Shown one piece after another: positions 12,001 to 24,000 of a stretch of DNA of 64,000 nt. This stretch comes from Abditibacterium sp. (lineage in GTDB: Bacteria > Armatimonadota > Abditibacteriia > Abditibacteriales > Abditibacteriaceae). Made by a program: the position numbers. Where the stretch lies: contig CBDASK010000003.1 in the NCBI GenBank assembly GCA_965199495.1, positions 4,288,001 through 4,352,000 of the forward strand. Reading direction: 5' to 3'. Within the stretch, counting starts at the first letter, position 1; every line of letters starts with the position of its first letter.

Positions 12001-15000
12001 CCGGATTGACGCGCGCGCCCGAACCGATTTGTCGCGTGTGGCGCAATCCGTCGCGCGTGATGACATTGGATGCCGACGCCGTGGCTGTGAACTGATTCGT
12101 TTCAAAATGATCGATCACTCGGAAATAGACGATTCACATTTAAGCTTGCCTAAGTAACCCGATTTGTTACTGCTCCACGATTGTCATGGGTGCGAAGAGA
12201 GGCACGAACGAAGTCAAGGCGCAACCTGTGGATTCTTCGACTTCGTTCGTGCCTCTCTTCGCACCCATGACAATCGTGGAGCAGTAACAAATCGGGTTGA
12301 AATAGCAGGAACAAAAATCAGTTTAATCTGTGTCGTAAAGAGCCACTATGAAAATTCATTATCTACTCCCGATGTGCGGACTATGCGCAATATTATTGTC
12401 GGGTTGTGGCGCGCACTCAGATTTCGCTCCAGCAACTTCGGAATCGGATGTTTCTGCCTCCGCCGCATCTGGAGCGGCAGAAGCGCCCGCCGCCGCGCAA
12501 AAGGGCAAAGGCGCGCCCGGTTCAGTTGGCGCGAGCGGGCAAGCGGTCGCGCCAACGCAACGCAAAATTATTTATACCGCGACCGTTGATTTGGTCGTGG
12601 AAAATCTGACGCAGGGCCAAACCAAACTACTGAATTTGGTGAAAGCCAACAAAGGTTATGTCGCCGAAACTAACGTCGGCGGCGCGAGCGGTGAGCAACG
12701 CACCGGAAAATGGAAAGTGCGTGTGCCCGTCGAGAATTACGAGGCGTTCATGACGGGCGCGGCGCGTTTGGGCGAATTGCAAAGCAGCAATTCATCGTCG
12801 CAGGACGTGACGGCGGAGTATTACGATGTGGCGGCTCGCATCAAAAATAAGCAGGTCGAAGAAGCGCGTTTGCAGGAGTTGCTCAAGCGAGCCACCGGCA
12901 AGCTGAGCGAAATTTTGCAGGTCGAAAAAGAGCTTTCGCGCGTGCGCGGTGAAGTCGAGCAGTTGCAGGGCCGCATTCGCGTGTTGGCCAGTCTTTCGTC
13001 GCTGACGACGATCACGATTTCGATGCGCGAAATCAAAGACTATATCCCGCCCGCTCCGCCGACATTTGGAACCGAAATCGGGCGTCAATTCAACGGCTCA
13101 TTGAGCGTAATGCGCGCGGCGGGCAAAGGTCTGGTTCTGCTGGGCGCCGCGCTGTTGCCGTGGCTGCCATTCGCCCTGGTCGGATTTTTCGGCTGGCGGT
13201 TTTGGCGGCGCAAAAACAAAATTTAATGGGCTACTTGAGTATGGAATTTTGAAGCGGTCAAAAGTGCGATTGGAAGGGTGCGCAAGCCCCGCTCCAATCG
13301 CACTTTTGACCGCTAATTCTTTTCCTGCCTCGTGTTCGCTGCGTGACAAATTGAATAGATTCTCGCGCTTGATTTGACGCTTGCGGCGAATCGTGGTAAA
13401 ATTGCTCAGGCTTTTCCACCAGAGATTCACGAGAAAAAGAGAAGAGACAAAAAATTATGTTCGCAATTATCCGCGTTGGCGGCAAACAGTATCGCGTCGA
13501 GAACGGCACCCAGATTTTGGTTGATCGCCTCCACGTCGAACCCGGCGACGCCGTTGAAGGCGTCGAAGTGTTGATGGTCGTTGATGGAGACGACACCCAA
13601 ATCGGCGCGCCCATCGTCGAAGGCGTCGCCGTTGGCGCGACCGCCGTTCGTCATCATCTGGGCAAAAAGATTCGCGTGTTCAAATACAAGGCGAAGAAAA
13701 ACTATCGCCGCCGCATCGGCTCGCGCCCGCACCAGACCTTAATCCGCATCGATTCCATCGGCGGCAACTCGACCAAACAAACCGCACAGGCTCCGCAAAC
13801 CGAAGCCGTGGCTGCGTAAAAGCACAGAGGAAATTACACAATGGCACACAAAAAAGGAATGGGTTCATCGCGCAACGGTCGCGATTCCAACGCCCAACGA
13901 CTGGGCATCAAGCGTTTTGGCGGCGAGAAAGTCACCGCCGGTTCGATTTTAGTTCGTCAGCGCGGCAGTCGCTACCACGCGGGCGCGGGCGTCGCGATGG
14001 GCAAAGATGACACTTTGTTCGCGATGATCCCCGGCGTCGTCAAATTCGAGCCGTGCCCGCGCGCGCACTCGACCGGCAAAAAAATCTCGGTCTACGCCGT
14101 CGAAACAGCCACCGCCGTCGCCGCCGAATAATTTTCGGTCGCAAATAAAAAAGCCCTCGCAATTGCGAGGGCTTTTTTGTTGGTGAGACGCGCGTTACAG
14201 CGGGGCTGACGCCTCCTTCCAATCGGCGATCTTTCGTTGTCTCATACCGATTGGAAGGAGGCGTCAGCCCCGCTGTAACGCCTTTACTAAAGGAATATAA
14301 AAGCGGGCCAGTGCATTTTGCACTGGCCCGCTTTGGTTATCGAACCGACTATTTCTTGGCCGGAGCCATTTTCGTCATCGTCGTAGTTTTGCTGGTCGCT
14401 TTGGGCGCCATTTTCATCTTCGATTTGCTCGCCATTTTGGTGGCGGGTTTGGCCGTTTTCTTCATCGCCATTTTGGAAGACGATTTGGAGGTCTTCATGG
14501 TCATTTTGCTGGCGGGTTTGGCCGTCTTTTTCGCCGCCATTTTGGTGGTGGTTTTGGCCATCGGTTTGGCCGTTGTGACGGGAGCGGCCAGCGCGACGCC
14601 GCCAAAAGCAAGGGCGCTACCGAGCGCCAAAACACGAGTGAGTTTGTTCATTGGAAATCCTTTTTTGTGCGGTTCGCTTTCGCGTGGCCGACCTAAAAAA
14701 TTATACGCGATTCCCATCGGCTAAAAACGATTTGTGAGCGAAGTCTTAACTATATTTATTGCGTTGGGTTAAGGTTGGTTAGAAAACACTTAGCATAAAG
14801 AAAGTTTGTGCCCATAATGTCGAATAGGCTGTGGGTTTAACATTTCACAGATGTTTGTAAGCCTATTGCATTAGGAGGCGGCGCAGCTATGAATTTTCAA
14901 AGAAGAAAACTATCAGGGCGCGCGAGTTTGCGAAGCGTTAATGCGCGCTCTGCCAGTGAGCTATGAGCCAATGAAAATTTCGGCCCGGCGGGAATCGAAC

Positions 15001-21000: not shown

Positions 21001-24000
21001 TTGCGCGACCGGCACTTCCAGGAAGTGCGCGACGGCTTCTTTAATCGCGAAGTTATCGGCGTTGGCGGGCAAACGCAATTGGGCGATGCTCAGCCGGTGC
21101 GAGTGGCCGCCGTAACGAACGTGAACTGCGGGCGTGAGCGCCGAAAGTGTGTGTGTCATAATGGTTTTTCTCCTCCTTGTGAGGAGTATGGGAGCCGAGG
21201 GAATCGAACCCTCTCAGCCGCAAAGGGCACGATTTTTACAGAATCGTTCAACTCTCCAACGTTGACGCGCTCCCAAAATGTGGGAATTGGAGAAAAGGAA
21301 GGCCCAGGAGTCGAACCCGCAGGCGATTAACCCGGCGCTGGTTTTCAAGACCAGATGGCGTCCACACGCCGCGACCTTCCGAGTGGAACTTTAAAATTGG
21401 GTTGGGAAAAACAAAAAAGCCCGCCATCGAGACTTCCTCAATGGCGGGCTTTGGGCGCGGACGGCGCAGTGATTTAAAACTGCCGTCGCGACTGAACCGA
21501 TGAGGAGGAAACCAAATTTTGGTTGCGATAATCGCCGCGCTGTGATGTTCTTGGCGACAAACGGACGAATTCACAATGGGCGCTCGGTTTGGATTCGAGT
21601 TGATGTTTCATGGAAATGGCTTGACCTCCTGTCGGAAAATTCATGGCTGTGATTGGTCGCCGATATGGCGACGGAGAAACACTTTACTGGGGTTTCAAAG
21701 CGTTGTCAAGAGTTTTGACGAAATATTTTTTTGGATTCGTCTGTTTTGAACGCGCGCGGTTTATAACCGCCCGTTGAGTCCGGCATTTTTCGTCGTTTCG
21801 CTAACAACAAAAAAGGCGCCACAATTTGTGGCGCCTTTTTTGTTTCCGACCTCTTAGCGATGCTGTTTATCGTGCTTCTGTTTGTAGATGTCGCGGCTGG
21901 TGCGATTATCGCGACGCTCGATATTGAGGCGTTCGCGCTTGGTGAACTTATCGCCCGACTTGCGATCTCGTGCCTCGATGCGCGCGATGTTGGCTTCGCG
22001 CTTTTCCAACTCGGCTGCCTCATGGTAGGTCAGCGAACCGTGGTGGACGCCCGCGTAGATGCGCTTTTGTTGGTTGGTTTGACGGGCGTTGATGTTGTGG
22101 TGATGTTTGTCGGTGTCCGCTTGGGCGGGCGCGCTTTGTAGAGCGGTGGCGGTCAGAACGCCCAAAAGAGCGATGCCCGTGAGAGCTTTGGTGATGGTTT
22201 GTTTCATCGTAATTTACCTCGTTTTTTCAAGTCGCCGGTTGATGCTTTGGCGCGACTTGTCCTGCTTAGACGACGCCACAATTCCGCTTGTTCGCGACGC
22301 AATCTGGCGTAATCTGAAGTAATCTAACGGCTCGTCTTTTTGTCCATCGTCATGCCGTCCATCGTCATGCCATCCATCTTCATGCCCGCCATCGCGTCGT
22401 TACGATCCAAACGCGACGGGCGCAGGCGCAAGAATATCTGGAAACCGGTGTGACTGCTGCCGCCATAAATCGCGTCCAAACCCGCCGGATTGGTATTGAA
22501 CGTGACCTGCGCGCCTGCGCCAATATCAATGCCGTTGTTGTGTTTTACGTCATGGACATAGCCAAACGCATACGAGCCGACGCCGAACAATTTTCCGTCG
22601 TATGGTGCCGCCAAAACCAGTTCATTGCCTGATTTTTGCACGCGCTCGAAGCGCGCGTAAACCGTATCGGCGCGGCGTTGATAATTCGTCTCGAACAGAT
22701 ACGCGTTGCTGCGACCTTCGCCGGTATCATTGTTCTGGCCCCACACCAGCGTATTGGCCCAGTTGCTATCGCGGCCCAGTGGCTTGTTGAAAATCACCGA
22801 AGCCGTCGTGCGATGGCGATTGAGATTCGGCTCCAACGTTTCGGGATGCTTGAGATAGCCGTGCGAAACCTGCAAAGCCAAGTCGCGCGTCGGGTTCCAC
22901 GAGACGCGCCCGCTAAACGAATCGAGGCGCGGCGTGTCGAAACTATAACGGTTCTCGTCGGGTTCCTGCCCTTTGAAAGTGCTGGCCTCAAACTTGAGTT
23001 TGCCCGTCGAAACTCCCGCCGTCACCACGCCAAACGCGATATGTGTCGAGTCCTGCCAGTGATGAGAAATCGGCGCATCGGGATTGTCCATGCCCGAAAT
23101 ACGGTGCATGAAAACCGGCGGCCCCAGCGCCGGTTCGCCCGGCAAACCCAGATATAGATAGGCCGAGTTGCTCTTGCTCAACTTGCGCGAATACGTCGCC
23201 GATAATTCGCTGAGCAAATCGTGCGGGTGTTGCCGGTCGTGGAGCGGCTGGCTTTTGTAACTCTCGCCGCTCTGATAAAGCAACGGATAGCCATAACCGC
23301 GCTCGATAATCGGGTCGAGGCTGGTCATCAGGCGCACGCCGATTTGCGCATTTTTGCCTGCGGGCTGCGAGGCCATCGCCATAAACATCGAGGGCGCATC
23401 GAAGCGGCTGTTGCCGCCTTGCCCCGAAGCAGCCACGTCGCGTTTGCCACCAATTGTGGTATAGCGCGGAAAAATATCGCCGTGCAGCATCAACATGCGG
23501 TCGCCCTTCATCTTCATCGCGGCGTAAATCGGCGAAGAATCGGGCACCCACGAAGTGCCCGAACTCTCGCGGCTCATTGGATCGCCCAGATCAACCGACG
23601 AACGCATCGCCATCATCGCGTGCGCGCCGGGGATTTTCATGGCGGGCATCGCGCCCATATCTTGCATCGGCGCGGTCTTGGCATCCGGCGTGGCTGCTTC
23701 GCCGACCAGAATGGTGCCGAACATTCCGCCTTTGGCATGGCCGCGCACGCTGCAAAAATAACGGTAAGCGCCCGGCGATGTCGCGCGTATCGTCATTTGT
23801 TCGGCGGAATACTGTTCGTCATTCTGGTGCGGCAACTTCGCCGAGCCGACGGCGCCCGTCATATCGGGCGCGATGGCAAACGGCGGCTGGGCCGCGCTCA
23901 AATGAATGTCGTGCGGCATATCGTCGTCGGTGTTGACGAAGGTAATATCGAGCATCGCATTCGCGGGCACGACAATCGTCGGATTGCGCGCGCCCTGAAT

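What a model noticed while it worked through the whole genome (the two positions that open the first line are those of the whole stretch)
14652..21380. Divergent Ro60 cassette: seven tandem Y-RNA-like tRNA mimics, two odd tRNAs, a ubiquitin-like protein and an E1-like enz [...]
One strand of a 6.7-kb stretch carries, in order, two atypical class-II tRNA genes (anticodons UGA-Ser and GUA-Tyr), a 76-aa beta-grasp protein ending in Phe-Gly, a 525-aa protein with no Pfam family whose predicted fold is the Ro60/Rsr ring, a 301-aa OB-fold protein, a 220-aa ThiF/E1-like adenylyltransferase, and then seven head-to-tail ~165-nt RNAs each built like a YrlA Y RNA (long closing helix with a conserved internal loop, then T-arm, loop-closed acceptor stem and D-arm). 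I read it as a new, horizontally mobile Ro60-Y RNA ribonucleoprotein system in which a ubiquitin-like protein/E1 pair (protein tagging or sulphur transfer) is coupled to an RNA-surveillance ring and an array of tRNA [...]
Evidence so far: RNAs: Rfam YrlA (RF02553) sub-threshold hits of 26-38 bits at 5 places in the gene-free 1.4 kb C3:4302652-4304059; reading the sequence shows 7 units sharing CACGGCGCGCCCCAAC..AAGCCUACA / GCUU..AAACUYGCGCGCCGUG; the acceptor strands of each unit pair with each other across a loop, so they are not tandem tRNA genes. RNAalifold on 21 units (7 own, 14 from 5 related loci): 30 pairs, 18 with compensatory double changes. Ro60: Pfam vWA_Ro60 only E 4.7e-5, below cut; profile of 22 homologues against PDB sequences: best 3 hits human and Xenopus Ro60 and D. 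radiodurans Rsr, E 4e-4 to 0.09, collinear; AlphaFold2 pLDDT 82; Foldseek vs PDB: ranks 1-12 all Ro60/Rsr/TROVE, E 4e-12 to 1e-9, TM 0.54-0.64, [...]
(Added by a program. Inside this text positions count along the whole contig: contig position 4,288,001 is position 1 of the stretch shown here. "Call 12" and the like, gene names such as g00115 and contig names such as C1 are that model's own, and its searches are not shown. The text may have been shortened before it was handed on; [...] marks where a part breaks off. The agent that wrote the report below was given it as the finding of a first reader that could run no searches.)

Follow-up and report, generated by a model that had tools for sequence, protein, structure and literature searches.

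The report
Ro60-like RNA-protein cassette with ubiquitin-like module
A mobile gene cassette joins a distant relative of the Ro60 RNA-binding ring, seven tandem tRNA-mimicking RNAs, and a small glycine-ended protein with its activating enzyme, a pairing of RNA surveillance with ubiquitin-like chemistry that I found in no paper.

Summary
The minus strand of 14906-21380 carries two atypical class-II tRNAs, a 76-aa protein ending in Phe-Gly, a 526-aa protein with the Ro60 fold, a 301-aa double-OB protein, a 220-aa ThiF/E1 enzyme and seven YrlA-like RNAs.

- **RNA handle.** The conserved RNA part is a closing "handle" that lacks the YrlA Ro-binding motif. Relatives carry YrlA-order mimics, whole tRNAs or short non-tRNA inserts on it.
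- **All-or-none module.** Of 44 well-flanked related loci, 31 have Ubl, OB protein and E1 together and 10 have none.
- **Ubl end.** All 49 Ubl homologues end in FG-stop.
- **Ubl-E1 model.** The complex model passes, with the Ubl tail in the E1 ATP site.
- **OB protein.** It has an invariant Cys in a GICLxGxDxxFDL motif.
- **JAB peptidase.** An intact JAB gene sits between the OB and E1 genes in 25 of 47 relatives, but not in this window.
- **Mobility.** The cassette also occurs in a 595-kb phage and on a cyanobacterial plasmid. tRNA arrays adjoin it in some loci.

Best reading: a Ro60-like RNP coupled to ubiquitin-like tagging. The target and purpose are inferred. The 299-aa gene is an insertion. 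This scan noted the same system three times before, in other genomes.

The parts
21296..21380 (-). Extra, atypical class-II tRNA-Ser(UGA)
   Evidence: Found by ARAGORN. The best Rfam clan hit is tRNA-Sec at 38.6 bits, sub-threshold. The cloverleaf is conserved with compensatory changes in 6 sequences, 9 of 28 pairs. A housekeeping Ser-UGA exists elsewhere, at C3:855814.
21188..21275 (-). Extra, atypical class-II tRNA-Tyr(GUA)
   Evidence: Found by ARAGORN. Rfam tRNA-Sec 33.8 bits, sub-threshold. 8 of 25 pairs show compensatory changes in 5 sequences. A housekeeping Tyr-GUA lies at C3:3787513. The Ser+Tyr pair is kept upstream of the Ubl gene in L001-L004.
20929..21159 (-). 76-aa ubiquitin-like protein candidate ending in Phe-Gly
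   Evidence: No Pfam, NCBIfam or PADLOC hit. tblastn finds it in 49 of 80 loci, and 49 of 49 end in FG-stop. Invariant residues are H13, R15, G18, S20, G65, T68, R70, P71, A73, F75 and G76. The complex model with the E1 scores 0.81 against a best control of 0.00.
18745..20325 (-). 526-aa divergent Ro60-like protein (helical-repeat ring plus vWA domain with MIDAS)
   Evidence: Fold and sequence evidence. The MIDAS residues D353, S355, S357, T415 and D439 are invariant in 27 sequences. The TROVE Pfam model finds nothing in the genome.
17803..18702 (-). 299-aa gene, a lineage-specific insertion and not part of the conserved cassette
   Evidence: 0 of 80 related loci hold it. No family hit. It is single-copy in the genome. 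Local GC is 0.49, against 0.57 and 0.61 next to it.
16858..17763 (-). 301-aa protein: N-terminal helix, two OB-like barrels, and a C-terminal alpha/beta domain with invariant Cys268 (candidate Ubl carrier)
   Evidence: Present in 48 of 80 loci. C268 is invariant within GICLxGxDxxFDL. AlphaFold2 pLDDT 82.6. Matches to OB/S1 folds and to the Mpa double-OB domain are weak. No Pfam family in 29 members.
16060..16722 (-). 220-aa ThiF/E1-like adenylyltransferase
   Evidence: PF00899 E 1.2e-28, 100.4 bits against a cut-off of 28.1. The profile hits E1, MoeB, ThiF, TcdA and MccB chains in the PDB. Invariant features are GxGxxG, D52, D54, K75, D115, D118, R123 and C167. Present in 47 of 80 loci.
16043..16071 (-). 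Sigma-70-like promoter match just upstream of unit 1
   Evidence: TTGACG-17-TAGAAT, 10 of 12. This is a consensus match only: 2 were found where 1.4 are expected.
15887..16039 (-). Handle RNA unit 1 (subtype with a short GNRA-closed acceptor hairpin)
   Evidence: CM 122.8 bits. MFE fold, alignment.
15733..15885 (-). Handle RNA unit 2 (GNRA-closed acceptor subtype)
   Evidence: CM 110 bits. MFE fold.
15575..15723 (-). Handle RNA unit 3 (7-bp acceptor subtype)
   Evidence: CM 137 bits. MFE fold. Rfam YrlA 26.5 bits.
15396..15553 (-). Handle RNA unit 4 (7-bp acceptor subtype)
   Evidence: CM 139 bits. Rfam YrlA 34.2 bits.
15232..15383 (-). Handle RNA unit 5 (GNRA-closed subtype, degenerate T and D arms)
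   Evidence: CM 92.6 bits. MFE fold.
15074..15223 (-). Handle RNA unit 6 (7-bp acceptor subtype)
   Evidence: CM 141.9 bits. The MFE fold shows the full architecture. Rfam YrlA 38.5 bits.
14906..15059 (-). Handle RNA unit 7 (7-bp acceptor subtype)
   Evidence: CM 141.8 bits. Rfam YrlA 32.4 bits.

Best explanation
This is a mobile cassette with two modules.

Module 1 is a ribonucleoprotein. A very divergent Ro60-like ring (helical repeats plus a vWA domain with an intact MIDAS site) pairs with a new family of small RNAs. Their conserved part is a handle: a 12-13-bp closing helix, an asymmetric internal loop, a second 6-bp helix, and the invariant AGCnUACA / GCU...ACU nucleotides. The handle is most likely the protein-binding site. 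It carries a variable cargo. In this window the cargo is seven YrlA-order tRNA mimics (T-arm, loop-closed acceptor, D-arm).

Module 2 is a minimal ubiquitin-like cascade. The 220-aa E1 adenylates Gly76 of the 76-aa protein. The activated protein is passed through a thioester to the invariant Cys268 of the double-OB protein, which acts as an E2-like carrier and docks on the RNA or RNP through its OB barrels. In about half of the relatives a JAB metalloprotease reverses the mark.

I propose that the tRNA-like cargos capture tRNA-binding proteins or damaged tRNAs, and that the cascade tags a component of the captured complex or the RNP itself. The context would be conflict over tRNAs between phages and hosts.

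Shown: the identities of the parts, the RNA structure, and the all-or-none linkage of Ubl, OB protein and E1.
Supported by a model only: the Ubl-E1 contact.
Inferred: the handle-ring binding, the Cys relay, the target and the biological purpose.
For: **Ro60 fold.** Foldseek ranks 1-12 are all Ro60/Rsr/TROVE. The profile against PDB sequences has Ro60 family members as its top 5. The MIDAS residues are invariant.

**RNA family.**
- 209 CM hits in 81 sources.
- nhmmer finds at least one hit in 65 of 80 related loci, almost always on the strand of the Ro60-like gene and next to it.
- On the CM alignment, 93.8% of cells pair and 26 of 27 pairs have double changes, against 32-47% paired when partners are slid.
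- On a MAFFT-only alignment of 32 units, 17 of 25 pairs covary, including all 7 acceptor-hairpin pairs.
- The handle is kept with non-tRNA inserts too: 14 of 19 pairs covary in 12 short variants.

**Linkage.** 31 of 44 well-flanked loci have Ubl, OB protein and E1; 10 have none; 3 are partial. RNA hits occur in 31 of the 31 full loci.

**Ubl.** 49 of 49 homologues end in FG-stop.

**E1.** The ATP loop and catalytic Asp/Lys/Arg are invariant, as is C167.

**Complex model.**
- Score 0.81 against a best control of 0.00.
- That mark was reached by 116 of 157 solved complexes and 2 of 215 mismatched pairs.
- The runs agree in at least 92% of contacts and the partner pLDDT is at least 84.
- Ubl residues 70-76 touch E1 residues 28, 30-33, 116-120 and 123.
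- The interface residues coincide with the invariant residues of both families.

**OB protein.** C268 is invariant. The fold is a double OB.

**JAB.** The HxHx7Sx2D motif is intact, and the gene lies between the OB and E1 genes in 25 of 47 loci with the E1 and in the phage copy.

**tRNA and conflict context.**
- Arrays of 10-24 tRNA genes lie directly upstream of the Ubl gene in L022, L058, L059 and L061.
- The whole cassette is in a 595-kb phage.
- One family member is fused to EF-Tu domain 3.
Against: - No expression, binding or conjugation data exist. No RNA run holds the stretch.
- E1-Ubl complexes have been solved (MoeB-MoaD, ThiF-ThiS), so the complex pass may reflect likeness rather than this pair's binding.
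- The beta-grasp fold of the Ubl was not tested. Its profile finds no known Ubl in the PDB.
- The OB protein matches no E2 family: no Pfam hit in 29 members. Its C-terminal domain has only weak matches, the best being Z 5.7, with Z 4.8 to an RWD domain.
- This window and the four other Abditibacteriota loci lack the JAB, and no clear (E <= 0.001) JAB match appears elsewhere in the genome; the best were E 0.006-0.02.
- 10 of 44 loci keep the Ro60-like gene without the Ubl module, so the RNP can work alone. Only 5 of those 10 show RNA hits.
- Phe-Gly is not the usual Gly-Gly.
- The bait idea has no direct support.
Confidence: 0.5

Rival explanations
1. Sulphur relay. The E1 makes a thiocarboxylate on the Gly-ended protein, as in ThiS, MoaD or TtuB, and the sulphur goes into the tRNA-like RNAs or tRNAs, for example thiolation of the T-loop uridine.
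For: The nearest NCBIfam models of the E1 are ThiF and MoeB, all far below their cut-offs. The RNAs keep a canonical T-loop. The conserved cysteines C167 and C268 could carry persulphide. From general knowledge of TtuB/TtuC/TtuA, recalled: a Ubl-E1 pair thiolates T54 in Thermus.
Against: None of the five cassette proteins has a rhodanese, cysteine desulphurase or PP-loop ATPase domain. The E1 has no conserved CxxC zinc motif. An intact JAB peptidase is present in 25 of 47 relatives. Iyer et al. 2006 (PMC1779556, passages read) link JAB with E1-like enzymes lacking rhodanese to Ub-like transfer, not to classical ThiF/MoeB chemistry.
Confidence: 0.12
2. The array is a set of permuted or embedded tRNA precursor genes. 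The ring protein is a maturation or storage chaperone for spare tRNAs, and the Ubl module only regulates the stability of that chaperone.
For: Some units in relatives hold a complete cloverleaf tRNA inside the handle: L071 2907-2980, L071 2349-2422, L063 6155-6230 and L026 6671-6744. About 24 of 243 hits have the T-loop in the 3' half. The Rfam tRNA model scores 41.8 bits across units 3 and 4. tRNA arrays adjoin the cassette. M. smegmatis YrlA, which has a 7-bp acceptor, is cut by RNase P and receives CCA (PMC4201824, passages read).
Against: All seven units here have no anticodon arm. The acceptor strands pair within a unit, with covariation at all 7 pairs. Three units have 5-bp GNRA-closed hairpins that cannot give a tRNA. 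54 of 243 hits carry no T-loop motif at all.
Confidence: 0.12
3. An ordinary Rsr/YrlA-type RNA quality-control RNP, with the Ubl, E1 and OB genes as unrelated neighbours.
For: 10 of 44 well-flanked loci have the Ro60-like gene without the three genes, set among housekeeping genes.
Against: The pattern is all-or-none: 31 loci have all three, 10 none and 3 are partial. Gene order is conserved across at least four phyla, in a huge phage and on a plasmid. Two residues of the ring protein track the module: C417 in 46 of 47 and Y246 in 47 of 47 full loci, against 4 of 10 solo loci for each. That count is confounded by relatedness.
Confidence: 0.08

Closest known systems
Bacterial Ro60 (Rsr) with YrlA-type Y RNAs (Chen et al. 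2014, PMC4201824, passages read; Salmonella, M. smegmatis, D. radiodurans)
   Same: A ring protein with the Ro60 fold and vWA/MIDAS. Small RNAs are encoded beside it whose 5' and 3' ends form a long stem. The cargo is a tRNA-like domain in the order T-arm, loop-closed acceptor, D-arm. Several RNAs can occur per locus.
   Different: No TROVE Pfam signal. The RNAs miss the Rfam YrlA gathering score, best 38.5 against 69, and lack the GNCGAAN0-1G motif. The handle has a different conserved sequence. Arrays hold up to about 7-11 units and the cargo is modular. No RtcB/RtcA partner was seen in the cassette; instead there are a Ubl, an E1 and an OB-Cys protein.
Phage Ro60 with Y-like RNAs (Thermus phage phiLo; PDB 9KOP and 9L5Y; PMC12135203, passages read)
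   Same: A Ro60-fold protein on a phage with two Y-like RNAs just upstream of the gene. The structure is among the best Foldseek matches (ranks 6 and 12).
   Different: phiLo Yrl RNAs were identified by the CGAA motif. No Ubl/E1 module is described in the passages I read.
Prokaryotic Ubl-E1-E2-JAB operons (Iyer, Burroughs and Aravind 2006, PMC1779556, passages read, type 6d). The later name Bil is recalled from memory.
   Same: A small Gly-ended protein, an E1-like enzyme without rhodanese, a JAB peptidase with an intact JAMM motif (in relatives), a Cys-bearing partner, sporadic distribution and presence on mobile elements.
   Different: The candidate carrier is not a recognisable UBC protein and is fused to two OB barrels. 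The JAB is absent in this window. The C-terminus is Phe-Gly. The whole cascade is tied to a Ro60-like RNP and tRNA-like RNAs. The words TROVE and vWA occur 0 times in that paper.
ThiF/ThiS, MoeB/MoaD and TtuC/TtuB sulphur-carrier pairs
   Same: A ThiF-family adenylation domain and a small partner with a free C-terminal Gly. The modelled tail-in-active-site contact resembles them.
   Different: All NCBIfam equivalog scores lie far below their cut-offs, for example ThiF 88 against 159. There is no zinc motif, no rhodanese and no sulphur-handling or PP-loop neighbour. A JAB is present in relatives.

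Membership tests
Ro60 / TROVE (Rsr) | Ring of helical repeats closed by a C-terminal vWA domain (overall fold) | tested here: met
   AlphaFold2 pLDDT 82.2. Foldseek ranks 1-12 are all Ro60/Rsr/TROVE, E 6e-12 to 3e-9, TM 0.51-0.64, over 531-585 alignment columns.
Ro60 / TROVE (Rsr) | TROVE domain sequence signature (Pfam PF05731) | tested here: not met
   Not among Pfam hits at E <= 0.01. The six-frame search of the own genome gives 0 matches at E <= 0.001, while the controls D. radiodurans and B. thetaiotaomicron do match.
Ro60 / TROVE (Rsr) | Ro60-type vWA domain (PF25045) with MIDAS residues | tested here: inconclusive
   PF25045 scores 23.8 bits, below the 27.7 cut-off. 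The MIDAS residues D353, S355, S357, T415 and D439 are invariant in 27 homologues.
Ro60 / TROVE (Rsr) | Binds a Y RNA stem | not testable with these tools
   Genomic linkage only: RNA hits in 65 of 80 loci.
YrlA (Rfam RF02553) | Reaches the Rfam gathering score (69 bits) | tested here: not met
   Best 38.5 bits; 5 hits of 26.5-38.5 bits.
YrlA (Rfam RF02553) | GNCGAAN0-1G motif on the 5' strand of the Ro-binding stem (PMC4201824) | tested here: not met
   0 occurrences in the 1141-nt array. The conserved handle nucleotides are AGCnUACA on the 5' side and GCU...ACU on the 3' side.
YrlA (Rfam RF02553) | tRNA-like domain in the order T-arm, loop-closed acceptor stem, D-arm, on a stem made by the 5' and 3' ends | tested here: met
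   MFE folds. RNAalifold on a MAFFT alignment of 32 units recovers the T-arm, 7-bp acceptor hairpin, D-arm and handle, with 17 of 25 pairs compensatory.
YrlA (Rfam RF02553) | Encoded within about 4 kb of the Ro60 gene | tested here: met
   The array starts 2.7 kb downstream of the Ro60-like gene here. In most relatives it lies directly upstream.
E1-like / ThiF superfamily | ThiF adenylation domain above the Pfam cut-off, with the Gly-rich ATP loop and catalytic Asp | tested here: met
   PF00899 100.4 bits against 28.1. Invariant GxGxxG, D52, D54, K75, D115, D118 and R123. PDB profile hits to E1, MoeB, ThiF and TcdA, E down to 2e-19.
ThiF/MoeB/MoeZ sulphur-carrier E1 | Equivalog-level score, zinc CxxC motifs or a rhodanese domain | tested here: not met
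   All NCBIfam equivalogs fall far below cut-off. No conserved CxxC in 28 sequences. No rhodanese hit.
Ubiquitin-like beta-grasp modifier | Free C-terminal glycine as the last residue | tested here: met
   49 of 49 homologues end in FG followed by a stop codon.
Ubiquitin-like beta-grasp modifier | Beta-grasp fold | not tested
The Atlas holds no model. The profile finds no Ubl in the PDB. Only indirect evidence: partner pLDDT of at least 84 in the complex model.
Ubiquitin-like beta-grasp modifier | C-terminal tail enters the E1 adenylation site | tested here: met
   This is a model only. Score 0.81 against a best control of 0.00. Ubl tail residues 70-76 touch E1 residues 28, 30-33, 116-120 and 123. 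Solved like complexes exist, so the pass may come from likeness.
Ubl-E1-E2-JAB conjugation operons (type 6d) | JAB/JAMM peptidase in the operon | tested here: not met
   No JAB in the window and no clear (E <= 0.001) match in the own genome; the best were E 0.006-0.02. It is present with an intact HxHx7Sx2D motif in 25 of 47 relatives with the E1 and in the phage copy.
Ubl-E1-E2-JAB conjugation operons (type 6d) | E2 (UBC-fold) protein with a catalytic Cys | tested here: inconclusive
   C268 is invariant. In the model it sits in the loop after a four-strand meander and before a helix. No Pfam E2 family in 29 members. Only a weak match to an RWD domain: Z 4.8, 70 residues, rmsd 3.7.

The most novel reading that the evidence does not exclude
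RNA-directed ubiquitin-like tagging. The array of diversified tRNA mimics on a common handle would be a bait library. It would bring tRNA-binding proteins, such as tRNA-cleaving toxins or defence nucleases, to a Ro60-like ring, where an OB-tethered carrier marks them with the Gly-ended protein.

An even bolder variant: units with a 7-bp acceptor are opened by RNase P and given CCA, as shown for M. smegmatis YrlA. The E1-activated glycine is then esterified to that RNA end, giving a protein-RNA conjugate made by aminoacylation-like chemistry.
Probability: 0.15. Interest if true: 0.95.

Novelty: new variant of a known kind. Interest (0 to 1): 0.8.

Why it matters
Ro60 and Y RNAs are conserved from bacteria to humans, yet what the bacterial particles do beyond tethering exonucleases is still open.

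This cassette shows a large, unannotated branch of the Ro60 fold: more than 2700 proteins and 943 clusters at 50% identity. That branch has its own RNA handle and modular tRNA-like cargos. In most well-flanked loci it is tied to a ubiquitin-like activation cascade.

If the link is functional, it would be the first case of ubiquitin-like chemistry wired to a small-RNA particle in bacteria and phages. It would also give a tractable system of four proteins and one RNA for asking how tRNA mimicry is used in phage-host conflict.

It has a eukaryotic echo, recalled from memory: the Ro52/TRIM21 ubiquitin ligase was long grouped with Ro60 as the SSA/Ro antigen.

Tried and rejected
**Searches and scans that gave nothing usable**
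- Rfam at gathering threshold on the whole window returned nothing at all. ARAGORN's tRNA-Val at 33007-33080 was also missed, so that blank is not informative. The E-value scan was used instead.
- The batch strand folding failed on length; I folded in Python instead.
- PADLOC and NCBIfam gave no named system. Only generic E1 hits appeared.
- The Protein Atlas gave only unnamed clusters for the Ubl and nothing for the C-terminal domain of the OB protein.
- The OB protein profile against PDB sequences found nothing, and so did the Ubl profile.
- No RNA holder is listed among the public runs for the array.

**Ideas rejected**
- A first regex classification of unit topology was wrong because the D-arm pattern matched the handle. 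It was redone using the position of the T-loop, and it remains crude.
- Solo loci were checked for an alternative partner gene; no recurrent one was found among the 18 neighbouring proteins taken from six of the ten solo loci (L007, L017, L045, L050, L066, L077).
- The two long perfect hairpins inside the cassette are genome-wide palindromic repeats, not part of the system.
- The possible eighth unit at 14799-14889 scores like unrelated hairpins.
- Tandem ordinary tRNA genes are rejected for this window, because the acceptor strands covary within units.
- MccB-like peptide-nucleotide synthesis was considered and set aside. That chemistry uses a C-terminal Asn (recalled), whereas here the end is an invariant Gly.

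**Papers**
- Searches for Ro60 or TROVE together with ubiquitin-like, ThiF, tRNA array or Planctomycetes found no description of this cassette.
- Burroughs and Aravind 2016 (RNA repair systems, recalled from memory) is not held and may bear on novelty.
- The supplementary tables of Chen et al. 2014 were not opened.

Full report
**What is there**

All elements lie on the minus strand of the window.

- ARAGORN finds tRNA-Ser(tga) at 21296-21380 and tRNA-Tyr(gta) at 21188-21275.
- Downstream follow these ORFs:
  - 76 aa, 20929-21159, ending in Phe-Gly;
  - 526 aa, 18745-20325;
  - 299 aa, 17803-18702;
  - 301 aa, 16858-17763;
  - a ThiF-family ORF, 16060-16782, with the likely ATG at 16722 giving 220 aa.
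- Then comes a gene-free stretch. In it the octamer AGCCTACA occurs seven times at 153-170-nt spacing, and nowhere else in the 64 kb. Shuffles expect 0.36, and 0 of 100 reach 7.
- The window lies on contig C3 of a 4.8-Mb genome. The nearest relatives of its Ro60-like protein are Abditibacterium MAGs.

**The RNAs**

- Each unit folds into a 12-bp closing helix, an asymmetric internal loop, a second helix, a variable hairpin, a T-arm, an acceptor stem closed by a loop, and a D-arm.
- There are two subtypes. Units 3, 4, 6 and 7 have 6-7-bp acceptor stems and canonical T and D loops. Units 1, 2 and 5 have 5-bp GNRA-closed hairpins.
- Rfam YrlA matches five places at 26.5-38.5 bits, well under the gathering score of 69.
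- A covariance model built from the seven units found 209 matches at E <= 0.01 in the window plus 80 related loci.
- On the model-fitted alignment of 150 matches, 93.8% of cells pair and 26 of 27 pairs show changes on both sides. When partners are slid, 32-47% pair. That alignment leans towards the model.
- I therefore also aligned 32 high-scoring units from 29 sources with MAFFT alone. RNAalifold recovered 25 pairs, 17 with compensatory changes, including all seven pairs of the loop-closed acceptor.
- So the acceptor strands pair within a unit. This excludes tandem ordinary tRNA genes, the false positive that Chen et al. 2014 warn about (PMC4201824, passages read).
- The Ro-binding motif that Chen et al. 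define for YrlA, GNCGAAN0-1G, is absent from the array. Instead AGCnUACA on the 5' side and GCU...ACU on the 3' side are 95-100% conserved over 150 sequences.

**The handle is the constant, the cargo varies**

A crude classification of 243 nhmmer hits gave:

| Class | Hits |
|---|---|
| T-loop in the 5' half (YrlA order) | 126 |
| T-loop in the 3' half | about 24 |
| Both handle motifs but no T-loop motif | 54 |
| No 5' handle motif | 35 |
| 5' handle motif only | 4 |

- Some units with the T-loop in the 3' half are complete cloverleaf tRNAs nested in the handle: L071 2349-2422, L071 2907-2980, L063 6155-6230 and L026 6671-6744.
- A ~100-nt handle-only variant recurs between the Ro60-like gene and the OB-protein gene. 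14 of its 19 pairs covary in 12 sequences.
- All seven units in this window are of YrlA order.

**The ring protein**

- Pfam gives only vWA_Ro60, below its cut-off. The TROVE model finds nothing in the genome.
- The family is large and unnamed: 2738 hits among the scored candidates and 943 clusters at 50% identity.
- A 27-sequence profile has Ro60, TROVE and Rsr chains as its five best PDB matches, E 1.1e-4 to 0.083.
- The AlphaFold2 model has pLDDT 82.2. Its twelve best Foldseek matches are all Ro60 family members.
- The MIDAS residues are invariant.
- One family member carries a C-terminal EF-Tu domain 3, and another carries an intein.

**The ubiquitin-like module**

- *E1.* It is a clear ThiF-family enzyme with the invariant ATP loop, Asp/Lys/Arg residues and Cys167. 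It has no conserved CxxC motif and no rhodanese domain.
- *Ubl.* The 76-aa protein matches no family. All 49 homologues end in FG followed by a stop codon.
- *Complex model.* E1 plus the 76-aa protein scores 0.81 against a best control of 0.00.
  - That mark was reached by 116 of 157 solved complexes and 2 of 215 mismatched pairs.
  - The runs agree in at least 92% of contacts and the partner pLDDT is at least 84.
  - Tail residues 70-76 touch E1 residues 28, 30-33, 116-120 and 123, that is, the nucleotide site.
  - Similar complexes have been solved, so the pass shows likeness rather than proof.
- *OB protein.* The 301-aa protein has no family.
  - Its model (pLDDT 82.6) has an N-terminal helix and two small barrels.
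  - The barrels match S1/OB proteins and the double-OB domain of proteasomal ATPases only weakly: Foldseek best E 1.5e-4 and VIA Z at most 6.6.
  - The C-terminal alpha/beta domain is unidentified. In it, Cys268 is invariant within the motif GICLxGxDxxFDL.
  - A Prok-JAB gene with an intact HxHx7Sx2D motif lies between the OB and E1 genes in the phage copy and in 25 of the 47 loci that have the E1.
  - It is absent from this window, from the other four Abditibacteriota loci and, as far as tblastn shows, from this genome.

**Linkage and mobility**

- tblastn finds the Ubl in 49, the OB protein in 48, the E1 in 47 and the 299-aa protein in 0 of 80 loci.
- Among the 44 loci with at least 2 kb upstream and 4.5 kb downstream, 31 have all three genes, 10 have none and 3 are partial. 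RNA hits occur in 31 of 31 full loci and in 5 of 10 solo loci.
- The usual order is Ubl, RNA array, ring protein, (short RNA), OB protein, (JAB), E1. In Abditibacteriota and a few Chloroflexota the array sits after the E1.
- The loci come mainly from Planctomycetota, Chloroflexota and Abditibacteriota, with single MAGs of other phyla.
- In a quick tree, the Abditibacteriota clade nests in a Chloroflexota group inside Planctomycetota. The solo state needs at least five changes (the careful search did not finish).
- A 595-kb uncultured phage, LR756511.1, holds the whole cassette with handle RNAs and tRNAs.
- Plasmid pAfl69 of Dolichospermum holds the ring protein, OB protein and ThiF genes.
- Arrays of 10-24 tRNA genes lie directly upstream of the Ubl gene in L022, L058, L059 and L061.
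- Here the upstream tRNAs are a conserved Ser(UGA)/Tyr(GUA) pair with compensatory changes. They duplicate housekeeping genes elsewhere in the genome and have unusual stems.
- In this window the cassette sits between rplU and a cupredoxin gene, near rpoBC. A recombinase, ParB, a KAP NTPase and an MmeI-type enzyme lie nearby. No prophage is evident.

**How it most likely works**

- *Shown:* the parts, the RNA structure and the linkage.
- *Model-supported:* E1 binds the Gly-ended protein tail-first.
- *Inferred:*
  - the ring binds the handle;
  - the activated protein passes to Cys268 of the OB protein, which docks on RNA;
  - the tRNA-like cargos capture tRNA-binding partners, and the cascade marks something in that complex, with JAB reversing the mark where present.
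- The JAB, the lack of any sulphur-handling or PP-loop enzyme and the rhodanese-less E1 favour tagging over sulphur transfer. This fits the reasoning of Iyer et al. 2006 (PMC1779556, passages read).
- Rivals are a TtuB-like sulphur relay, a tRNA-precursor store, and mere neighbourhood. Each is weaker for the reasons given in its field.

**Comparison with what is known, and novelty**

- The system works like Rsr/YrlA and like Ubl-E1-E2-JAB operons.
- It fails the sequence-based membership tests of TROVE and of Rfam YrlA.
- In this window it lacks the JAB and a recognisable E2.
- Seven literature searches found no paper joining Ro60 to a Ubl/E1 module. The nearest is a preprint listing Ro60 and ThiF genes separately in an archaeal virus.
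- One likely relevant paper could not be read.
- This scan had already noted the same system in three other genomes. Those are AI notes, not independent evidence.

Noticed in passing
window 20775-20935 and 16740-16855: Two long, near-perfect palindromes inside the cassette are dispersed genome repeats, with 147 and 56 BLAST hits in the genome respectively (each palindrome is counted on both strands). They look like a REP- or MITE-like element family. They explain the many microRNA-precursor look-alike hits in Rfam.
   Followed up: partly
window 17803-18702 (-): A 299-aa ORF with no family, lower GC (0.49) and no homologue in 80 related loci or elsewhere in the genome. It sits where relatives carry a short handle-only RNA, so it looks like an insertion into the cassette.
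   Followed up: partly
L022, L058, L059, L061 (upstream of the Ubl gene): Arrays of 10, 18, 16 and 24 tRNA genes lie on the cassette strand directly upstream of the Ubl gene. The huge phage locus L081 also carries tRNAs around the cassette.
   Followed up: partly
P0137 and P0129 (relatives of the ring protein): One homologue is fused to EF-Tu domain 3, a domain I recall as contacting the tRNA T-arm. Another homologue is interrupted by an intein with a LAGLIDADG domain.
   Followed up: no
window 18745-20325 (-), residues C417 and Y246: Cys417, next to the MIDAS threonine, is kept in 46 of 47 loci with the Ubl module but in only 4 of 10 solo loci. Tyr246 is kept in 47 of 47 against 4 of 10. Relatedness confounds this count.
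   Followed up: partly
window 14147-14287 (-): Rfam Leu_leader scores 49.1 bits, just under its gathering score of 50, between rplU and the array. It is probably a hairpin or terminator look-alike.
   Followed up: no
own genome G000, C3: ARAGORN lists odd tRNAs elsewhere in the genome: one tRNA-Stop(tta), one tRNA-Phe(aaa), four tRNA-Trp(cca) and one with a two-base anticodon call.
   Followed up: no
window 1345-8424 and 26457-29351: Mobile and defence-type genes flank the region: an S24 peptidase repressor-like protein, ParB, a large serine recombinase, a KAP NTPase and an MmeI-type restriction-modification enzyme.
   Followed up: no
window, whole: The Rfam scan at gathering threshold returned no match at all. 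It missed the tRNA-Val that ARAGORN finds at 33007-33080, so a blank from that mode should not be trusted here.
   Followed up: no
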